64,000 nucleotides of DNA from the sequence record NC_054934.1. One strand, written 5' to 3'. The notes under the pieces are model-generated. The model had not been told where the DNA came from, searched no databases, and saw only the letters and a program-made list of their open reading frames with translations. Position numbers and translations under genes: made by a program. The DNA is from Escherichia phage teqskov. Positions 13,279 to 25,124 of this stretch are shown here, in pieces (positions within the stretch are counted from its first letter, which is position 1; each line of letters opens with the position of its first letter).

Positions 13279-13351
13279 TGGGAATTAGCCAAGTTGGTAA
13301 GGCATAGCACTTTGACTGCTAGATGCAAAGGTTCGAGTCCTTTATTCCCAG
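13279..13351 (+). tRNA. tRNA-Gln (anticodon UUG)
   Basis: Cloverleaf folded by hand: acceptor tgggaat/attccca, anticodon loop ctTTGac, T-loop ttcgagt. Confidence 0.85.
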
Positions 13352-13352
13352 C

Positions 13353-13439
13353 GCGAGAATGGTCAAATTGGTAAAGGCACAGCACTTAAAATGCTGCGGA
13401 ATGATTTCCTTGTGGGTTCGAGTCCCACTTCTCGCACCA
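13353..13439 (+). tRNA. tRNA-Leu (anticodon UAA), long variable arm, CCA encoded
   Basis: Acceptor gcgagaa/ttctcgc, anticodon loop ctTAAaa, T-loop ttcgagt, ends ACCA. Confidence 0.85.
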
Positions 13440-13444
13440 AATTT

Positions 13445-13518
<74 letters not shown>

Positions 13519-13528
13519 ATTTAATTTA

Positions 13529-13602
13529 CTCCGTGTAGCTCAGTTTGGTAGAGCGTCTGCTTTGGGAGCAGAATGTCGTAGGTTCAAATCCTGCCGCGGA
13601 GA
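13529..13602 (+). tRNA. tRNA-Pro (anticodon UGG)
   Basis: Acceptor ctccgtg/cgcggag with one G-U, anticodon loop ttTGGga, T-loop ttcaaat. Confidence 0.8.
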
Positions 13603-13604
13603 CT

Positions 13605-13694
13605 GGAGGCGTGGCAGAGTGGTTTAATGCACCGGTCTTGAAAACCGGCAGTCGCTCCGGCGACTCATAGGTTCAAATCCTATCGCCTCCGCCA
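13605..13694 (+). tRNA. tRNA-Ser (anticodon UGA), long variable arm, CCA encoded
   Basis: Acceptor ggaggcg/cgcctcc, anticodon loop ctTGAaa, T-loop ttcaaat. Confidence 0.85.
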
Positions 13695-13699
13695 GTTTT

Positions 13700-13775
13700 G
13701 CTGATTTAGCTCAGTAGGTAGAGCAGTTGACTGTTAATCAATTGGTCCATGGTTCGAATCCATGCATGTCCGCCA
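13700..13775 (+). tRNA. tRNA-like element with intact D, anticodon (loop cuGUUaa) and T arms but an acceptor stem that cannot pair; possible hybrid or pseudo-tRNA
   Basis: 5' gctgatt against 3' catgtcc gives only 3 of 7 pairs; first ~26 nt match the remembered T4 tRNA-Thr 5' half; ends GCCA. Confidence 0.5.
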
Positions 13776-13901
13776 AACTTGTGACAGTTGTCACATTAAT
13801 ATCTACTTGACGCGATTATAGGGGTTGAACTGATCACACTTCTCTTAATTTCGTGTGAAGACATCTTGATTGTTGGAGTAGGTATTGCTGTGAACTAATT
13901 A
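13776..13901 (+). other. Non-coding spacer with hairpins (gtgacagttgtcac; cacac...gtgtg); possible small stable RNA
   Basis: No ORF; T4 encodes small stable RNAs in its tRNA region; assignment speculative. Confidence 0.2.
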
Positions 13902-13978
13902 CGGGGTGTAACTCAATTGTATAGAGTAGCGGTCCTCTAAACCGCAGGTTAAAGGTTAGAATCCTTTCACCCTGACCA
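13902..13978 (+). tRNA. tRNA-Arg (anticodon UCU), CCA encoded
   Basis: Acceptor cggggtg/caccctg with one G-U, anticodon loop ccTCTaa, T-loop ttagaat, ends ACCA. Confidence 0.8.
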
Positions 13979-18137: not shown

Positions 18138-18622
18138 TTTTAAAAACTCGCTGGTATGATTTAGATGATGGGGACGATGGCATTTCAGTTGATAGAGTTG
18201 ATTGGAGTGGCTGTTCTGAAGATACAAAGAAACGATTAATTAGGGAGTTTAGAATGGGATATCAAGCAGCTAAGCCATCTACTGTAACAGATGATAAATT
18301 CGTGTGTATTCAAAATGGTCGTGCTAAGTTAACGAACGCTGATTGGTTCACAGATAAGAAGGTTATTCTGTGGTATATTATTAGTTTTCCTGTGACATCA
18401 TTTGTATTTTGCTTCTTTGGAGAAAGTCCAGTAGGCAGAACGGAAGATTGGATTCTTTTAATTATACTTGTTAATATTTTTACAGCAACAGTACTATCAG
18501 GAATATGGTGCGTGTTCATTGAAATGCCATGGCGGTTACGTAGGCAGCAAAAGATTTTTGATGAAAAGAAATATACTCAAAATTTAAATAATTTTATCAC
18601 TGAATGCAGGAAATTAAAATGA
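18134..18622 (+). CDS. Membrane protein, C-terminal FITECRKLK
   Basis: 162 aa; TM segments; stop overlaps nudE start. Confidence 0.5.
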   Translation: MILKTRWYDLDDGDDGISVDRVDWSGCSEDTKKRLIREFRMGYQAAKPSTVTDDKFVCIQNGRAKLTNADWFTDKKVILWYIISFPVTSFVFCFFGESPVGRTEDWILLIILVNIFTATVLSGIWCVFIEMPWRLRRQQKIFDEKKYTQNLNNFITECRKLK

Positions 18623-19059
18623 AAACATTATCAGCTGGTATTATCTTTATGACAGAAGATAAAGATTTATTTATGGGACGAGTTACTGGTTCTCGTAAGC
18701 CTGGAATGATGGCACATCGCTGGGATATTCCAAAGGGGCGTGTAGAAAATTCTGATTTAAGCGCATTAGATGCAGCACGAAGAGAATGCTCAGAAGAGAC
18801 TGGTTTTAACAATTATAATCCAGACCTTCTAGAAGACCTAGGTGTATTTAAATATTCTAGTAATAAAGACTTACAGTTATTTTATTATACGATTCCAGTA
18901 GAGCATGAGATGTTCAGAAATTGCCATTGCGAGTCTTATTTTGAAAATAAAGATGGTGTTATGATTCCAGAGATGGATGCTTTTGCCCTTATTCCTCGTA
19001 CTCAGTGGCAATATGTGATGGGTCCTTCACTTTACCGAATAATGAACAGCCTCTTTTAA
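18619..19059 (+). CDS. nudE: Nudix hydrolase NudE (e.1)
   Basis: Nudix box GRVENSDLSALDAARRECSEETGF; ATG 18619 with AGGAAA SD; directly upstream of e as in T4. Confidence 0.8.
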   Translation: MKTLSAGIIFMTEDKDLFMGRVTGSRKPGMMAHRWDIPKGRVENSDLSALDAARRECSEETGFNNYNPDLLEDLGVFKYSSNKDLQLFYYTIPVEHEMFRNCHCESYFENKDGVMIPEMDAFALIPRTQWQYVMGPSLYRIMNSLF

Positions 19060-22742: not shown

Positions 22743-23204
22743 ATGACTATCAATACAGAAGTTTTTATCCGTCGAAATAAGCTTCGTCGTCACTTTGAGT
22801 CGGAGTTTCGTCAAATTAACAATGAGATTCGTGAGGCATCAAAAGCAGCAGGAGTCTCATCGTTTCATCTAAAATATTCTCAACATCTTCTTGATCGTGC
22901 AATTCAACGGGAGATTGATGAGACATATGTTTTTGAATTATTCCATAAAATAAAAGACCATGTTTTAGAAGTTAATGAATTCCTGAGTATGCCTCCGCGT
23001 CCTGACATTGACGAGGATTTTATTGATGGGGTTGAATATCGTCCTGGACGTTTAGAAATCACAGATGGAAATCTTTGGCTTGGATTTACGGTTTGTAAGC
23101 CTAATGAGAAGTTCAAAAACCCGTCACTTCAATGCAGGATGGCAATTATCAACAGTCGTCGTTTACCAGGAAAGGCTTCTAAAGCAGTAATTAAAACTCA
23201 ATGA
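22743..23204 (+). CDS. regB: Site-specific endoribonuclease RegB
   Basis: 153 aa; matches remembered T4 RegB in sequence and length. Confidence 0.88.
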   Translation: MTINTEVFIRRNKLRRHFESEFRQINNEIREASKAAGVSSFHLKYSQHLLDRAIQREIDETYVFELFHKIKDHVLEVNEFLSMPPRPDIDEDFIDGVEYRPGRLEITDGNLWLGFTVCKPNEKFKNPSLQCRMAIINSRRLPGKASKAVIKTQ

Positions 23205-23211
23205 GGTAAGC

Positions 23212-23757
23212 ATGAGAAAAGCACTACTCGCTGGTCTATTGGCCATTTCAATGATGGCACATAGCTCCGAGCATACTTTCAGTAATGTCCAACTCGATAA
23301 CATGCGTTACGCGTATCAATTCGGGGAACAATTTTCTAAGGATGGAAAATATAAAACACACAAAAATATCCACAAGAGCGGATTAGGTCATATAATGGCT
23401 GCTATTTTATGGCAAGAAAGCTCTGGCGGAGTTAATTTAAAATCTAAACCAAAGCATCACGCCTACGGAATGTTCCAAAATTATTTGCCTACTATGCGAG
23501 CAAGAGTTAAGGAACTTGGTTATAATATGACCGATGCTGAAATAAAAAGAATGTTGAATAAACGGTCCAATTCAGCTTCCTGGGCGTACATTGAACTTTC
23601 TTATTGGTTAAATATACATAAGGGCGATATAAGAAAAGCAATATCCTCTTATAATTCGGGATGGAATGTTAAAGCAGGTTCTAAATATGCTTCTGAAGTC
23701 CTAGAAAAGGCTAATTACCTTAAAAATAATAAACTTTTGGAAATAGTAAATGACTAA
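23212..23757 (+). CDS. Secreted lytic-transglycosylase-like protein (vs.1 position)
   Basis: 181 aa; signal peptide; WQESSGG and YGMFQ motifs resemble the SLT domain. Confidence 0.55.
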   Translation: MRKALLAGLLAISMMAHSSEHTFSNVQLDNMRYAYQFGEQFSKDGKYKTHKNIHKSGLGHIMAAILWQESSGGVNLKSKPKHHAYGMFQNYLPTMRARVKELGYNMTDAEIKRMLNKRSNSASWAYIELSYWLNIHKGDIRKAISSYNSGWNVKAGSKYASEVLEKANYLKNNKLLEIVND

Positions 23758-24091
23758 AATTTTGGTTTTATGTATAGGATTAATTTCATTTTCTGCGTTA
23801 GCAGATACATCATATACTGAAATTAGAGAGTATGTAAACCGTACTGCCGCGGATTATTGTGGGAAAAATAAAGCATGCCAAGCTGAATTTGCGCAGAAAT
23901 TAATATATGCATATAAAGACGGAGAAAGAGATAAATCAAGCAGATACAAAAATGATACATTGTTAAAACGATATGCTAAAAAGTGGAATACCTTAGAATG
24001 TTCAGTTGCGGAGGAGAAAGATAAAGCCGCTTGTCATTCAATGGTTGACCGTTTAGTAGATTCTTATAATCGAGGATTGAGTACTAGATGA
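23750..24091 (+). CDS. Small secreted protein at the vs locus (possible vs homolog)
   Basis: 113 aa; N-terminal signal peptide; assignment by position only. Confidence 0.4.
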   Translation: MTKILVLCIGLISFSALADTSYTEIREYVNRTAADYCGKNKACQAEFAQKLIYAYKDGERDKSSRYKNDTLLKRYAKKWNTLECSVAEEKDKAACHSMVDRLVDSYNRGLSTR

Positions 24092-24567
24092 TTGTAAAAT
24101 ATATCAAGGGCGATATTGTCGCCCTATTTCTTCAAGGTAATATTATTGCGCATGGGTGCAATTGCTTCCACACAATGGACTCTGGCGTAGCAGGTCAATT
24201 AGCAAGAGCCTATCCTAAAATTTTGGAAATAGATAAAACCACTACCGAGTACGGTTCTCGTGATAAATTAGGCGATATGTCTATTGTTTTTAAACATAAT
24301 CCTACAGGATTTGGTATATGCTATAACCTGTATACGCAATATGAACCGGGTCCTAATCTTGATTATGGTGCTTTAGTAAACTGCATGATAGAATTAAATC
24401 TACAGGCAGAAACCCTTTTGTTTAAACCAGTAATTTACATTCCACGCATAGGTTGCGGTATTGCTGGCGGCGATTGGGATAAGGTTTCTAAATTAATCGA
24501 CATGTTTACTCCTGATATTGATTTAATAGTGGTGGATTATGAAAGTACATTACCCGCATCCGTTTGA
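24088..24567 (+). CDS. Macro-domain protein (putative ADP-ribose binding/hydrolase)
   Basis: 159 aa; GDIV...IAHGCNCF..MDSGVAGQL and IPRIGCGIAGG motifs resemble macro domains (by eye). Confidence 0.55.
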   Translation: MIVKYIKGDIVALFLQGNIIAHGCNCFHTMDSGVAGQLARAYPKILEIDKTTTEYGSRDKLGDMSIVFKHNPTGFGICYNLYTQYEPGPNLDYGALVNCMIELNLQAETLLFKPVIYIPRIGCGIAGGDWDKVSKLIDMFTPDIDLIVVDYESTLPASV

Positions 24568-24751
24568 TCCTAAAAACAAAGTGGAAATTATTCGTCAATG
24601 GGAACGCATTTGCCGTACTAAATGTCCAATTAATAGTCCGCATGATGTAGATAAAGACTATATTGGAACATTCGTTGAATATACCTTTATTGATAAGAAA
24701 GGTCGTAAACAGCACGTAGAAGAATATTGCTTAAAGGTTACATGGTTATGA
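24539..24751 (+). CDS. Hypothetical protein
   Basis: 70 aa ORF. Confidence 0.4.
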   Translation: MKVHYPHPFDPKNKVEIIRQWERICRTKCPINSPHDVDKDYIGTFVEYTFIDKKGRKQHVEEYCLKVTWL

Positions 24752-24954
24752 GCCAAACAAGTATTCTTAAAAATGCCCACTGCGAAAAGTGTGAATGGCC
24801 GGTTGTTTTTGCTTTATGTAATGATGAAATGGCTTGTGATTTCGATTATTGGTGCTATTGTTCTAATAAAGGATGCATCAATCATAAAGGTGAAGGATTT
24901 TATTCAGGATTTTATCCTTATCCTGATTTCGTTAAAGAAGGTAAACCAAAATGA
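24727..24954 (+). CDS. Cys-rich small protein (putative zinc-binding)
   Basis: 75 aa with CxxC pairs (CEKCEW, CYCSNKGC). Confidence 0.4.
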   Translation: MLKGYMVMSQTSILKNAHCEKCEWPVVFALCNDEMACDFDYWCYCSNKGCINHKGEGFYSGFYPYPDFVKEGKPK

Positions 24955-25124
24955 ATAGTTTTGAGTTACAATATGAAGTGTTACGTGAGCTTGATAATTT
25001 AATTGAACTCGCTGTCAATAAAGGTTTTGCCATTGGAATCGGTCAAAAAGATACTGGTCATTTAACCATGGAAATATTTAAGCAAAAGCGAATTATTTTA
25101 AAACTCCTGGAAATTAATATATGA
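24951..25124 (+). CDS. Small hypothetical protein (57 aa)
   Basis: ATG overlaps upstream stop and stop overlaps downstream ATG; below the ORF-track size cutoff. Confidence 0.35.
   Translation: MNSFELQYEVLRELDNLIELAVNKGFAIGIGQKDTGHLTMEIFKQKRIILKLLEINI

What the first reader, a model, noticed from the sequence alone, without database searches (positions are those of the whole stretch)
24088..24567. Macro-domain protein in the early region
The 159 aa product has motifs reminiscent of macro domains (GDIV...IAHGCNCF..MDSGVAGQL...IPRIGCGIAGG). T4-like phages encode ADP-ribosyltransferases, and bacteria use ADP-ribosylation (for example DarT) and NAD-derived signals in defence, so a phage macro domain could reverse such modifications or degrade a signalling nucleotide.
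Basis: partly seen in the sequence, partly recalled or inferred. Interest (0 to 1): 0.55.

Follow-up and report, generated by a model that had tools for sequence, protein, structure and literature searches.

The report
Known T4-type phage macrodomain (Tk.4/AdfM)
This gene is the already-described tk.4 macrodomain gene of T4-like phages, whose T4 counterpart was recently shown genetically to protect the phage from the bacterial DarTG2 DNA-ADP-ribosylating defence, so the finding is correct but not new.

Summary

The window is a Tequatrovirus early region ordered regB-vs.1-vs-tk.4-tk.3...tk. The protein is identical to the "Macro domain protein / phosphatase" of Escherichia phage teqskov. tk.4 orthologs were assigned an A1pp/macro domain in 2006. 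A November 2025 preprint showed that T4 tk.4 (renamed adfM) is needed to resist DarTG2.

Three refinements:
- This allele is only 57% identical to T4 Tk.4, yet it sits in flanks that are 96-100% identical to T4. It looks like a sharply bounded allele cassette.
- The family has an invariant Gln84 where DarG and TARG1 have the catalytic Lys. SCO6735, a biochemically proven thymidine-ADP-ribose hydrolase, has Gln at the same position. It therefore works like DarG but is not a DarG family member.
- This phage carries a private G31D change in the phosphate-binding loop, of unknown effect.

Anti-DarT2 activity of this allele is inferred, not shown. Interest is low.

The parts
24088..24567 (+). tk.4 (adfM-type) coding sequence: a 159-aa stand-alone macrodomain, stop codon included
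   Evidence: ORF. Pfam Macro above cut-off. PHROG 335 at 3e-70. Annotated tk.4 in syntenic phages. Exact match to teqskov QHR64335.1.
24088..24091 (+). ATGA overlap: the tk.4 start ATG overlaps the TGA stop of vs, which suggests translational coupling (inferred)
   Evidence: Sequence. ORF ends and starts.
24151..24201 (+). Loop 1, the phosphate-binding loop HGCNCFHTMDSGVAGQL (residues 22-38). H22, G23, N25, C26, G33 and A35 are invariant in the family.
   Evidence: Alignment A1. N25 aligns with the Asn that was mutated in PhiKZ AdfM (N23A).
24178..24180 (+). Codon 31 is GAC (Asp). This is a private G31D substitution (GGC to GAC at nt 24179) in the phosphate-binding loop.
   Evidence: All 9 close relatives, T4 and T2 have Gly here. 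Among 134 relatives the counts are G 119, A 5, N 4, K 3, R 2, D 1, and the single D is this protein itself.
24325..24339 (+). NLYTQ (residues 80-84). The invariant Gln84 occupies the position of the catalytic Lys of DarG (K80) and TARG1 (K84), and of Gln85 in SCO6735.
   Evidence: HMMER profile alignment to TARG1 and BT1257. MAFFT alignments. Invariance. SCO6735 Q85A is inactive (PMC9411070).
24442..24477 (+). Loop 2, the substrate-binding loop PRIGCGIAGGDW (residues 119-130). The same motif occurs in SCO6735 and BT1257 (PRIGCGLAGGxW). T4 has PRIGAGIGKGNW.
24130..24569 (+). Divergent allele cassette: about 49-61% DNA identity to T4, inside flanks that are 96-100% identical
   Evidence: Sliding identity against T4. 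337 phage records carry this allele type. 385 records match the T4-type allele query, about 215 of them at >=95% and 154 at about 80% identity.
24539..24567 (+). 29-nt overlap of the tk.4 3' end with the start of tk.3 (DUF7202), in another reading frame
23750..24091 (+). Upstream neighbour vs (valyl-tRNA synthetase modifier)
   Evidence: Synteny and annotation.
24539..24751 (+). Downstream neighbour tk.3 (DUF7202, 70 aa)
   Evidence: Pfam PF23832 at 1.2e-37. Annotation.

Best explanation
The gene is the tk.4 ortholog of a T4-like phage, probably Escherichia phage teqskov. It encodes a 159-aa stand-alone macrodomain of the ALC1-like clade (TARG1 / DarG / SCO6735 / Poa1p).

Its most likely job is that of an orphan antitoxin mimic. 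It would be expressed from the regB-vs-tk transcription unit, would bind ADP-ribose attached by the host DarT2 toxin to thymidines in single-stranded phage DNA, and would hydrolyse the ribose-base bond. That would restore replicable DNA and release free ADP-ribose.

The chemistry is probably not the Lys-dependent one of DarG and TARG1. It more likely resembles the Gln-dependent, water- and backbone-mediated mechanism proposed for SCO6735. In that scheme the invariant Gln84 positions the distal ribose, and the two Gly-rich loops (residues 22-38 and 119-130) clamp the diphosphate.

What is shown here: the ORF, the fold, the clade, orthology and synteny with T4 tk.4, purifying selection, and the Gln at the catalytic position. 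What comes from the literature: the anti-DarTG2 phenotype of T4 tk.4, and the thymidine-ADP-ribose hydrolase activity of the Gln-type enzyme SCO6735. What is inferred: that this 57%-identical allele, carrying its private G31D change, has the same activity.
For: Fold and clade:
- Pfam Macro.
- AF2 model at pLDDT 93.5.
- Profile against PDB: BT1257 2.8e-19, TARG1 1.4e-16, SCO6735 2.1e-15, DarG 9.5e-12.

Orthology:
- Synteny vs-tk.4-tk.3.
- 57% identity over 155 aa to T4 Tk.4, E=1e-69.
- PHROG 335.

Function of the ortholog:
- T4 tk.4 was the only HIDEN-SEQ hit on a DarTG2 host, and a clean knockout was sensitised.
- T4 and T2 stay DarTG2-resistant without adfA and adfN (PMC11825919).

Mechanistic precedent:
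- SCO6735 has Gln85 at the catalytic-Lys position. Q85A is dead. The enzyme removes DarT thymidine-ADP-ribose faster than DarG and rescues E. coli from DarT (PMC9411070).
- Window Gln84 aligns with that Gln and is invariant in 79 of 79 relatives.
- The PRIGCGxAGGxW loop is shared with SCO6735 and BT1257.

Evidence of a functional gene:
- dN/dS is 0.04-0.09.
- The T2 Tk.4 protein is detected in infected cells (bioRxiv 2026.06.19.733364).
Against: - No member of the Tk.4 family has been assayed biochemically. The T4 result is a preprint-level genetic phenotype.
- That phenotype was obtained with an allele only 57% identical to this one. The T4 substrate-binding loop also differs (GAGIGKGNW against GCGIAGGDW).
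- This phage has a private G31D in the phosphate-binding loop. It lies next to the position equivalent to SCO6735 Lys34, and the K34E mutation there nearly abolishes DNA activity. This particular copy could therefore be weakened.
- The family lacks the 5-6-residue longer 'mobile loop', with its Lys89, that characterises the SCO6735 subclass.
- DarG HMMs give only 22 bits.
- One bacterial homolog that was inspected has no ADP-ribosyltransferase neighbour.
Confidence: 0.7

Rival explanations
1. It is a Poa1p-like small-molecule enzyme. It would act as an ADP-ribose-1''-phosphate phosphatase or an O-acetyl-ADP-ribose deacetylase, or would otherwise process soluble ADP-ribose derivatives. Such derivatives could include NAD-derived immune signals. 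It would not act as a DNA repair enzyme.
For: - The database names are 'phosphatase', 'Poa1p-like' and 'O-acetyl-ADP-ribose deacetylase'.
- The invariant His22 aligns with Poa1p His23 in the HMMER alignment. An H23A mutant structure of Poa1p has been deposited.
- Iyer et al. argue that many phage macrodomains may target soluble ADP-ribose derivatives (PMC9503650).
Against: - No phenotype or assay supports this for any Tk.4 protein.
- The annotation names are transferred by homology only.
- The only genetic phenotype known for the family is DarTG2 sensitivity.
- From my own knowledge, T4 RNA repair does not use a Tpt1/KptA step that would generate Appr-1''-p.
Confidence: 0.12
2. It is a protein de-ADP-ribosylase. 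It would erase Glu/Asp-linked (TARG1-like) marks, or would tune the modifications laid down by the phage's own Alt/ModA/ModB transferases or by host transferases.
For: TARG1 and SCO6735, both close structural relatives, also hydrolyse Glu/Asp-ADP-ribosylated proteins.
Against: - From my own knowledge, Alt, ModA and ModB modify arginine, a linkage macrodomains are not known to cleave.
- SCO6735 strongly prefers DNA over protein substrates.
- No such transferase gene lies next to tk.4.
- There is no phenotype to support it.
Confidence: 0.07
3. In this particular phage the gene is a weakened or inactive copy. The private G31D change puts an acidic side chain into the phosphate-binding loop. It may be a recent mutation that survived because the phage was propagated on a host without DarTG. 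This reading is compatible with the best explanation at the family level.
For: - D31 occurs in none of 133 other relatives. Ozark differs from the window protein only at this residue.
- The exact protein was seen on a single contig.
- The neighbouring position corresponds to SCO6735 K34, where K34E nearly kills DNA activity.
- Natural loss of the gene does occur: FL33 carries a frameshifted tk.4.
Against: - Position 31 tolerates A, N, K and R in other family members.
- The profile penalty is only about 2 bits.
- The ORF is otherwise intact.
- A sequencing error cannot be excluded.
Confidence: 0.2
4. It neutralises DarT2 mainly by binding the toxin or its product (interaction-inhibition or sequestration), not by catalysis.
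For: Catalytically dead SCO6735 (Q85A), DarG (K80A) and TARG1 (K84A) still inhibit DarT in vitro (PMC9411070).
Against: - The family keeps a strictly invariant active-site set: H22, G23, N25, Q84 and the Gly loops.
- It lacks the C-terminal DarT-binding domain of DarG. The protein is 159 aa, and only the first ~145 positions of the DarG HMMs (329-338 positions) are matched.
Confidence: 0.05

Closest known systems
T4 Tk.4 / AdfM (anti-DarT factor Macrodomain; bioRxiv 10.1101/2025.11.20.689424)
   Same: It occupies the same locus, vs-tk.4-tk.3. It belongs to the same PHROG. It has the same length class and the same invariant residues, including Gln84. The first 14 residues are identical.
   Different: It is only 57% identical in protein and about 60% in DNA, inside otherwise 96-100% identical flanks. 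The substrate-binding loop reads GCGIAGGDW here and GAGIGKGNW in T4. It is 4 residues longer at the C-terminus and overlaps tk.3. It carries a private G31D. The anti-DarTG2 phenotype was tested only for the T4 allele.
SCO6735 (Streptomyces coelicolor) and BT1257 (Bacteroides thetaiotaomicron): Gln-type ALC1-like macrodomains
   Different: Identity is 25-28%. Tk.4 lacks the 5-6-residue longer mobile loop and the Lys34 and Lys89 equivalents. It has Gly23 where SCO6735 has Val25. It is encoded by a phage, not a bacterium.
DarG antitoxin macrodomain (DarTG2)
   Different: The catalytic Lys80 is replaced by Gln. There is no C-terminal DarT-binding domain and no adjacent darT. The NCBIfam DarG model gives 22.4 bits against a cut-off of 250.
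PhiKZ gp104 'AdfM' (Cell Rep 2026, PMC13309987)
   Same: It is also a phage stand-alone macrodomain that counters DarTG2. It was shown biochemically to remove DarT2 ADP-ribose from DNA.
   Different: It belongs to a different subfamily. gp104 is a true DarG-type macrodomain, with the FPTK motif and 133-138 bits to DarG HMMs. It is barely alignable to the window protein (BLASTP E=0.012). The two proteins received the same name independently.
Human TARG1/OARD1 and yeast Poa1p
   Same: Same clade. TARG1 also reverses DarT thymidine ADP-ribosylation (PMC8501950 title and abstract).
   Different: The TARG1 catalytic residues Lys84 and Asp125 correspond to Gln84 and Ala126 here. Poa1p is a phosphatase acting on a soluble metabolite.

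Membership tests
Macro domain (Pfam PF01661) | Profile score above the curated gathering threshold | tested here: met
   30.8 bits against a cut-off of 22, E=3.2e-7, covering profile positions 2-117 of 118.
Macro domain (Pfam PF01661) | Three-layer alpha/beta macro fold | tested here: met
Macro domain (Pfam PF01661) | ADP-ribose binding | not testable with these tools
   Both Gly-rich loops are present, but G31D lies within loop 1.
ALC1-like clade (TARG1 / DarG / SCO6735 / Poa1p) | Closer in structure and sequence to these proteins than to MacroD, viral Mac1, PARG or macroH2A classes | tested here: met
Tk.4 / AdfM orthologous group of T4-like phages | Conserved position between vs and tk.3, and high-scoring membership of the same phage protein family | tested here: met
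   Synteny. PHROG 335 at 3.3e-70. 57% identity to T4 Tk.4.
Tk.4 / AdfM orthologous group of T4-like phages | Required for plaque formation on DarTG2-expressing hosts | not testable with these tools
   Shown only for the T4 allele.
DarG antitoxin (NCBIfam NF048014 / PADLOC DarG) | Score above the family cut-off | tested here: not met
   22.4 bits against a cut-off of 250. PADLOC DarG gives 22.2 bits.
DarG antitoxin (NCBIfam NF048014 / PADLOC DarG) | Catalytic lysine (Lys80) | tested here: not met
   Gln84 aligns at that position and is invariant in the family.
DarG antitoxin (NCBIfam NF048014 / PADLOC DarG) | C-terminal DarT-binding domain and an adjacent darT gene | tested here: not met
   The protein is 159 aa and matches only HMM positions ~2-145 of 329-338. 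Its neighbours are vs and tk.3.
SCO6735/BT1257 subclass of ALC1-like macrodomains | Gln at the catalytic-Lys position | tested here: met
   Q84 aligns with SCO6735 Q85 and the BT1257 Gln (PMC9411070).
SCO6735/BT1257 subclass of ALC1-like macrodomains | Mobile loop five residues longer than in DarG and TARG1 | tested here: not met
   BT1257 and SCO6735 show a 5-6-residue insertion relative to Tk.4. The Tk.4 loop has the TARG1/DarG length.
Poa1p-type ADP-ribose-1''-phosphate phosphatase | Phosphatase activity on Appr-1''-p | not testable with these tools

The most novel reading that the evidence does not exclude
The tk.4 locus may be an arms-race cassette. At least three allele classes circulate in otherwise near-identical T4-like genomes: this type in 337 records, the T4 type in about 215, and a class about 80% identical to the T4 type in about 154. 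The swap boundaries are sharp. The classes differ in the substrate-binding loop, which reads AGGD here (SCO6735-like) and GKGN in T4. They might therefore have different specificities, for example for different DarT2 variants, other nucleic-acid ADP-ribosyltransferases, or different linkages. On this reading the teqskov-specific G31D would be a further specificity-changing or inactivating step.
Probability: 0.2. Interest if true: 0.45.

Novelty: already known. Interest (0 to 1): 0.2.

Why it matters
The finding adds little. It recovers a gene whose domain has been annotated since 2006 and whose counter-defence role was published in 2025. The source record already calls it a macro domain protein.

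Its practical value lies in three refinements:
- The T4 family 'AdfM' proteins are Gln-type (SCO6735-like) enzymes, not Lys-type (DarG-like) ones. The chimallivirus protein of the same name is Lys-type. The two 'AdfM' groups are therefore different subfamilies and probably use different chemistry.
- The locus is strongly polymorphic among near-identical phages. A DarTG2 phenotype measured in T4 should not be transferred automatically to the roughly 340 sequenced phages that carry this allele.
- This isolate's G31D offers a ready-made natural variant for testing the phosphate-binding loop.

Tried and rejected
- Single-sequence AlphaFold gave an unusable model (pLDDT 34). It was replaced by the alignment-based model.
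- Filing the protein as a DarG family member was rejected. The HMM score is far below cut-off, the catalytic Lys is absent, and there is no C-terminal domain or adjacent darT.
- Filing it as a full member of the SCO6735/BT1257 subclass was rejected because the long mobile loop is absent.
- I looked for an ADP-ribosyltransferase next to one bacterial homolog (Pelagimonas, P0096). None was present, which is uninformative.
- The sigma-70 promoter scan around the gene was no better than shuffled sequence: 17 sites against 20.5 expected. No promoter claim is made from it.
- I checked whether T2 could serve as a DarTG2-resistant phage carrying this allele. It cannot, because T2 has the T4-type allele.
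- The Poa1p structure paper was not in the searchable library, so the role of His23 is not cited from it.
- The HMM penalty for G31D is only about 2 bits, so sequence statistics cannot decide whether the change is harmful.

Full report
**Observation**

The window has an ATG-to-stop ORF at 24088..24567 on the + strand, encoding 159 aa. The start ATG overlaps the TGA stop of the upstream gene as ATGA. The last 29 nt overlap the start of the downstream gene in another frame.

**Source and context**

The 3-kb surroundings are 98-99% identical to many Tequatrovirus (T4-like) genomes. The annotated gene order in those genomes is regB, vs.1, vs, tk.4, tk.3..., tk, rI.1, rI, so the ORF is tk.4. Pfam scans of the neighbours agree:
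- RegB at 22743-23204
- an SLT-domain protein (vs.1) at 23212-23757
- DUF7202 (tk.3) at 24539-24751
- further upstream, NUDIX (nudE/e.1), lysozyme e and denV

An exact-sequence look-up finds this very protein as QHR64335.1 / YP_010074652.1 of Escherichia phage teqskov. It is named 'phosphatase' and 'Macro domain protein' there, and was seen on a single 165-kb contig. The window therefore most probably comes from that phage or a near-identical one.

**Is it a macrodomain?**

Yes. The evidence is:
- Pfam Macro (PF01661) scores 30.8 bits against a curated cut-off of 22, and covers nearly the whole profile.
- PHROG 335 matches at 3.3e-70.
- Single-sequence AlphaFold was useless (pLDDT 34). With a 79-sequence alignment of database relatives, the model reached pLDDT 93.5 and pTM 0.89.
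- The top Foldseek hits against the PDB are all macrodomains: Poa1p, TARG1, BT1257 and DarG.
- A profile search against PDB sequences gives the same ranking.

The protein therefore belongs to the ALC1-like clade. The gene is under strong purifying selection: dN/dS is 0.04-0.09 against eight close alleles, with dS up to 0.68.

**What is already known**

- Nolan et al. 2006 (PMC1524935) reported that tk.4 orthologs match the A1pp (macro) domain.
- Several GenBank records label the gene 'macro domain protein' or 'Poa1p-like'.
- A November 2025 preprint (10.1101/2025.11.20.689424) screened a T4 transposon library on a DarTG2-expressing host. tk.4 was the single significant hit, and a clean knockout sensitised T4 to DarTG2. 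The authors noted similarity to the M. tuberculosis DarG macrodomain, renamed the gene adfM, and proposed enzymatic removal of ADP-ribose from DNA.
- This filled a gap left by Nat Commun 2025 (PMC11825919). That paper showed that T4 and T2 remain DarTG2-resistant without adfA and adfN.
- The T2 Tk.4 protein has been detected in infected cells.

**Refinement 1: the allele**

The window protein is only 57% identical to T4 Tk.4 (89 of 155 residues). A sliding comparison with T4 DNA shows the following:
- 96-100% identity through regB, vs.1 and vs
- 83% over the first 100 nt of tk.4
- about 49-61% from roughly 24188 to 24569
- 89-96% again in tk.3

This is a sharply bounded allele replacement. The window-type allele occurs in 337 phage records, including the genera Dhakavirus and Gaprivervirus. 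The T4-type allele occurs in about 215 records at >=95% identity. A further class, about 80% identical to the T4 type, occurs in 154 records. T2 has the T4-type allele. The published phenotype therefore concerns a different allele class from the one in this window.

**Refinement 2: the active site**

In HMMER and MAFFT alignments, window Gln84 falls at the position of the catalytic Lys of TARG1 (K84) and DarG (K80). TARG1 Asp125 corresponds to Ala126. Gln84 is invariant in 79 of 79 relatives, as are H22, G23, N25, C26, G33, A35, D49, N80, Y82, P119, G122, G124 and W130.

DarG HMMs score the window protein at only 22 bits, against an NCBIfam cut-off of 250. They match only the macro part of the model. 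There is no C-terminal DarT-binding domain and no darT neighbour. The protein is therefore not a DarG family member.

PhiKZ gp104 was independently named AdfM and was shown biochemically to remove DarT2 ADP-ribose from DNA (PMC13309987). It is a genuine DarG-type macrodomain: it has the FPTK motif, scores 133-138 bits to the DarG HMMs, and matches M. tuberculosis DarG at E=9e-25. It is barely alignable to the window protein.

The missing Lys does not argue against DNA de-ADP-ribosylation. SCO6735 of Streptomyces coelicolor is 54% identical to BT1257, the best structural match of the window protein. It has Gln85 at exactly this position, and Q85A or Q85E abolishes activity. The enzyme removes DarT-made thymidine-ADP-ribose faster than DarG or TARG1 and rescues E. 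coli from DarT. A water- and backbone-mediated mechanism was proposed for it (PMC9411070).

The window protein shares the SCO6735/BT1257 loop motif PRIGCGxAGGxW. It lacks their 5-6-residue longer mobile loop, and it lacks equivalents of Lys34 and Lys89. It is thus a Gln-type ALC1-like macrodomain, but not a full member of the SCO6735 subclass.

**Refinement 3: a private substitution**

Codon 31 is GAC (Asp). All nine close relatives that were fetched, plus T4 and T2, have GGC or GGT (Gly). Phage Ozark differs from the window protein at this residue only. Among 134 relatives the position is G 119, A 5, N 4, K 3, R 2 and D 1, and the single D is this protein itself.

Residue 31 lies in the phosphate-binding loop. 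It is adjacent to the position equivalent to SCO6735 Lys34, where K34E nearly abolishes activity on DNA. However, the family-profile penalty is only about 2 bits, and other side chains are tolerated at this position. The effect cannot be predicted. A sequencing error or a laboratory-passage mutation is possible. Natural loss of the gene does happen: phage FL33 has a frameshifted tk.4.

**Most likely mechanism**

- Shown here: the fold, the clade, orthology, selection, and the Gln-type site.
- Taken from papers: the T4 knockout phenotype and the SCO6735 enzymology.
- Inferred: the protein is made from the regB-vs-tk transcription unit. It recognises ADP-ribose that host DarT2 attaches to thymidines in single-stranded phage DNA. 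It hydrolyses the N-glycosidic bond with Gln84 positioning the distal ribose. It releases ADP-ribose so that replication can proceed.

I put about 0.7 on this for the allele class, and somewhat less for this D31 copy being fully active.

**Rivals**

The rivals are a Poa1p-like small-molecule phosphatase or deacetylase, a protein de-ADP-ribosylase, a weakened copy caused by G31D, and non-catalytic toxin inhibition. They are listed with their evidence in the Rival explanations section.

**Verdict**

The feature is already known. Interest is low. The allele polymorphism, the Gln-type rather than Lys-type distinction between the two proteins called 'AdfM', and the private G31D are the only points that go beyond the literature.

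Noticed in passing
window 24107-24125 (+): There is a perfect 7-8-bp GC-rich hairpin (AGGGCGAT-ATT-GTCGCCCT) followed by a T-rich tract, inside codons 7-13 of tk.4. Both stem arms are unchanged in all 12 phages compared, including P479 (dS 0.68) and the T4/T2 allele. Only loop bases vary. The break in identity between the two allele classes starts immediately after it. It could be a transcription or RNA-stability element or a recombination boundary, or simply a by-product of the conserved KGDIVAL coding sequence.
   Followed up: partly
window 24369-24394 (+): A MotA-box-like middle-promoter motif (TGCTTTA, 12 nt, TAGAAT) lies inside tk.4, pointing towards tk.3 and tk. It is a single regex match and was not tested against chance.
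   Followed up: no
window 24753-25119: The stretch between tk.3 and the last small ORF before tk has no blastn match to T4. It carries small ORFs annotated RB32ORF111c and RB32ORF110c in a related phage, where T4 has tk.2 and tk.1. This is a second mosaic patch right next to the tk.4 cassette.
   Followed up: no
window 13279-13978: The tRNA cluster has six intact tRNAs: Gln, Leu, Gly, Pro, Ser and Arg. Rfam also finds a truncated tRNA at 13707-13764 that matches only model positions 8-63 of 71. This is probably a decayed remnant of one of the extra tRNAs that, as I recall, T4 carries at this place.
   Followed up: partly
window 18604-19059 (+): A NUDIX hydrolase gene (nudE/e.1 position, Pfam 1.3e-13) lies 5 kb upstream on the same strand. 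As I recall, the T4 enzyme hydrolyses ADP-ribose, so it could dispose of the product released by the macrodomain. No link was tested.
   Followed up: no
L010 (Escherichia phage FL33) 301-776: In this otherwise near-identical phage, tk.4 is frameshifted after residue 130 (…GGDWIRFLN*). This is a natural loss-of-function allele.
   Followed up: partly
protein cluster (P0128): A member of the same 90% cluster is deposited as an E. coli protein (WP_260938641.1) on a 489-kb contig. This suggests phage DNA within, or contaminating, a bacterial assembly.
   Followed up: no
window 23750-24091 (vs): In T4, the upstream neighbour vs was the gene most strongly depleted in minimal medium in the same HIDEN-SEQ study. 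The two adjacent, translationally coupled genes are therefore both conditionally important, each under a different condition.
   Followed up: no
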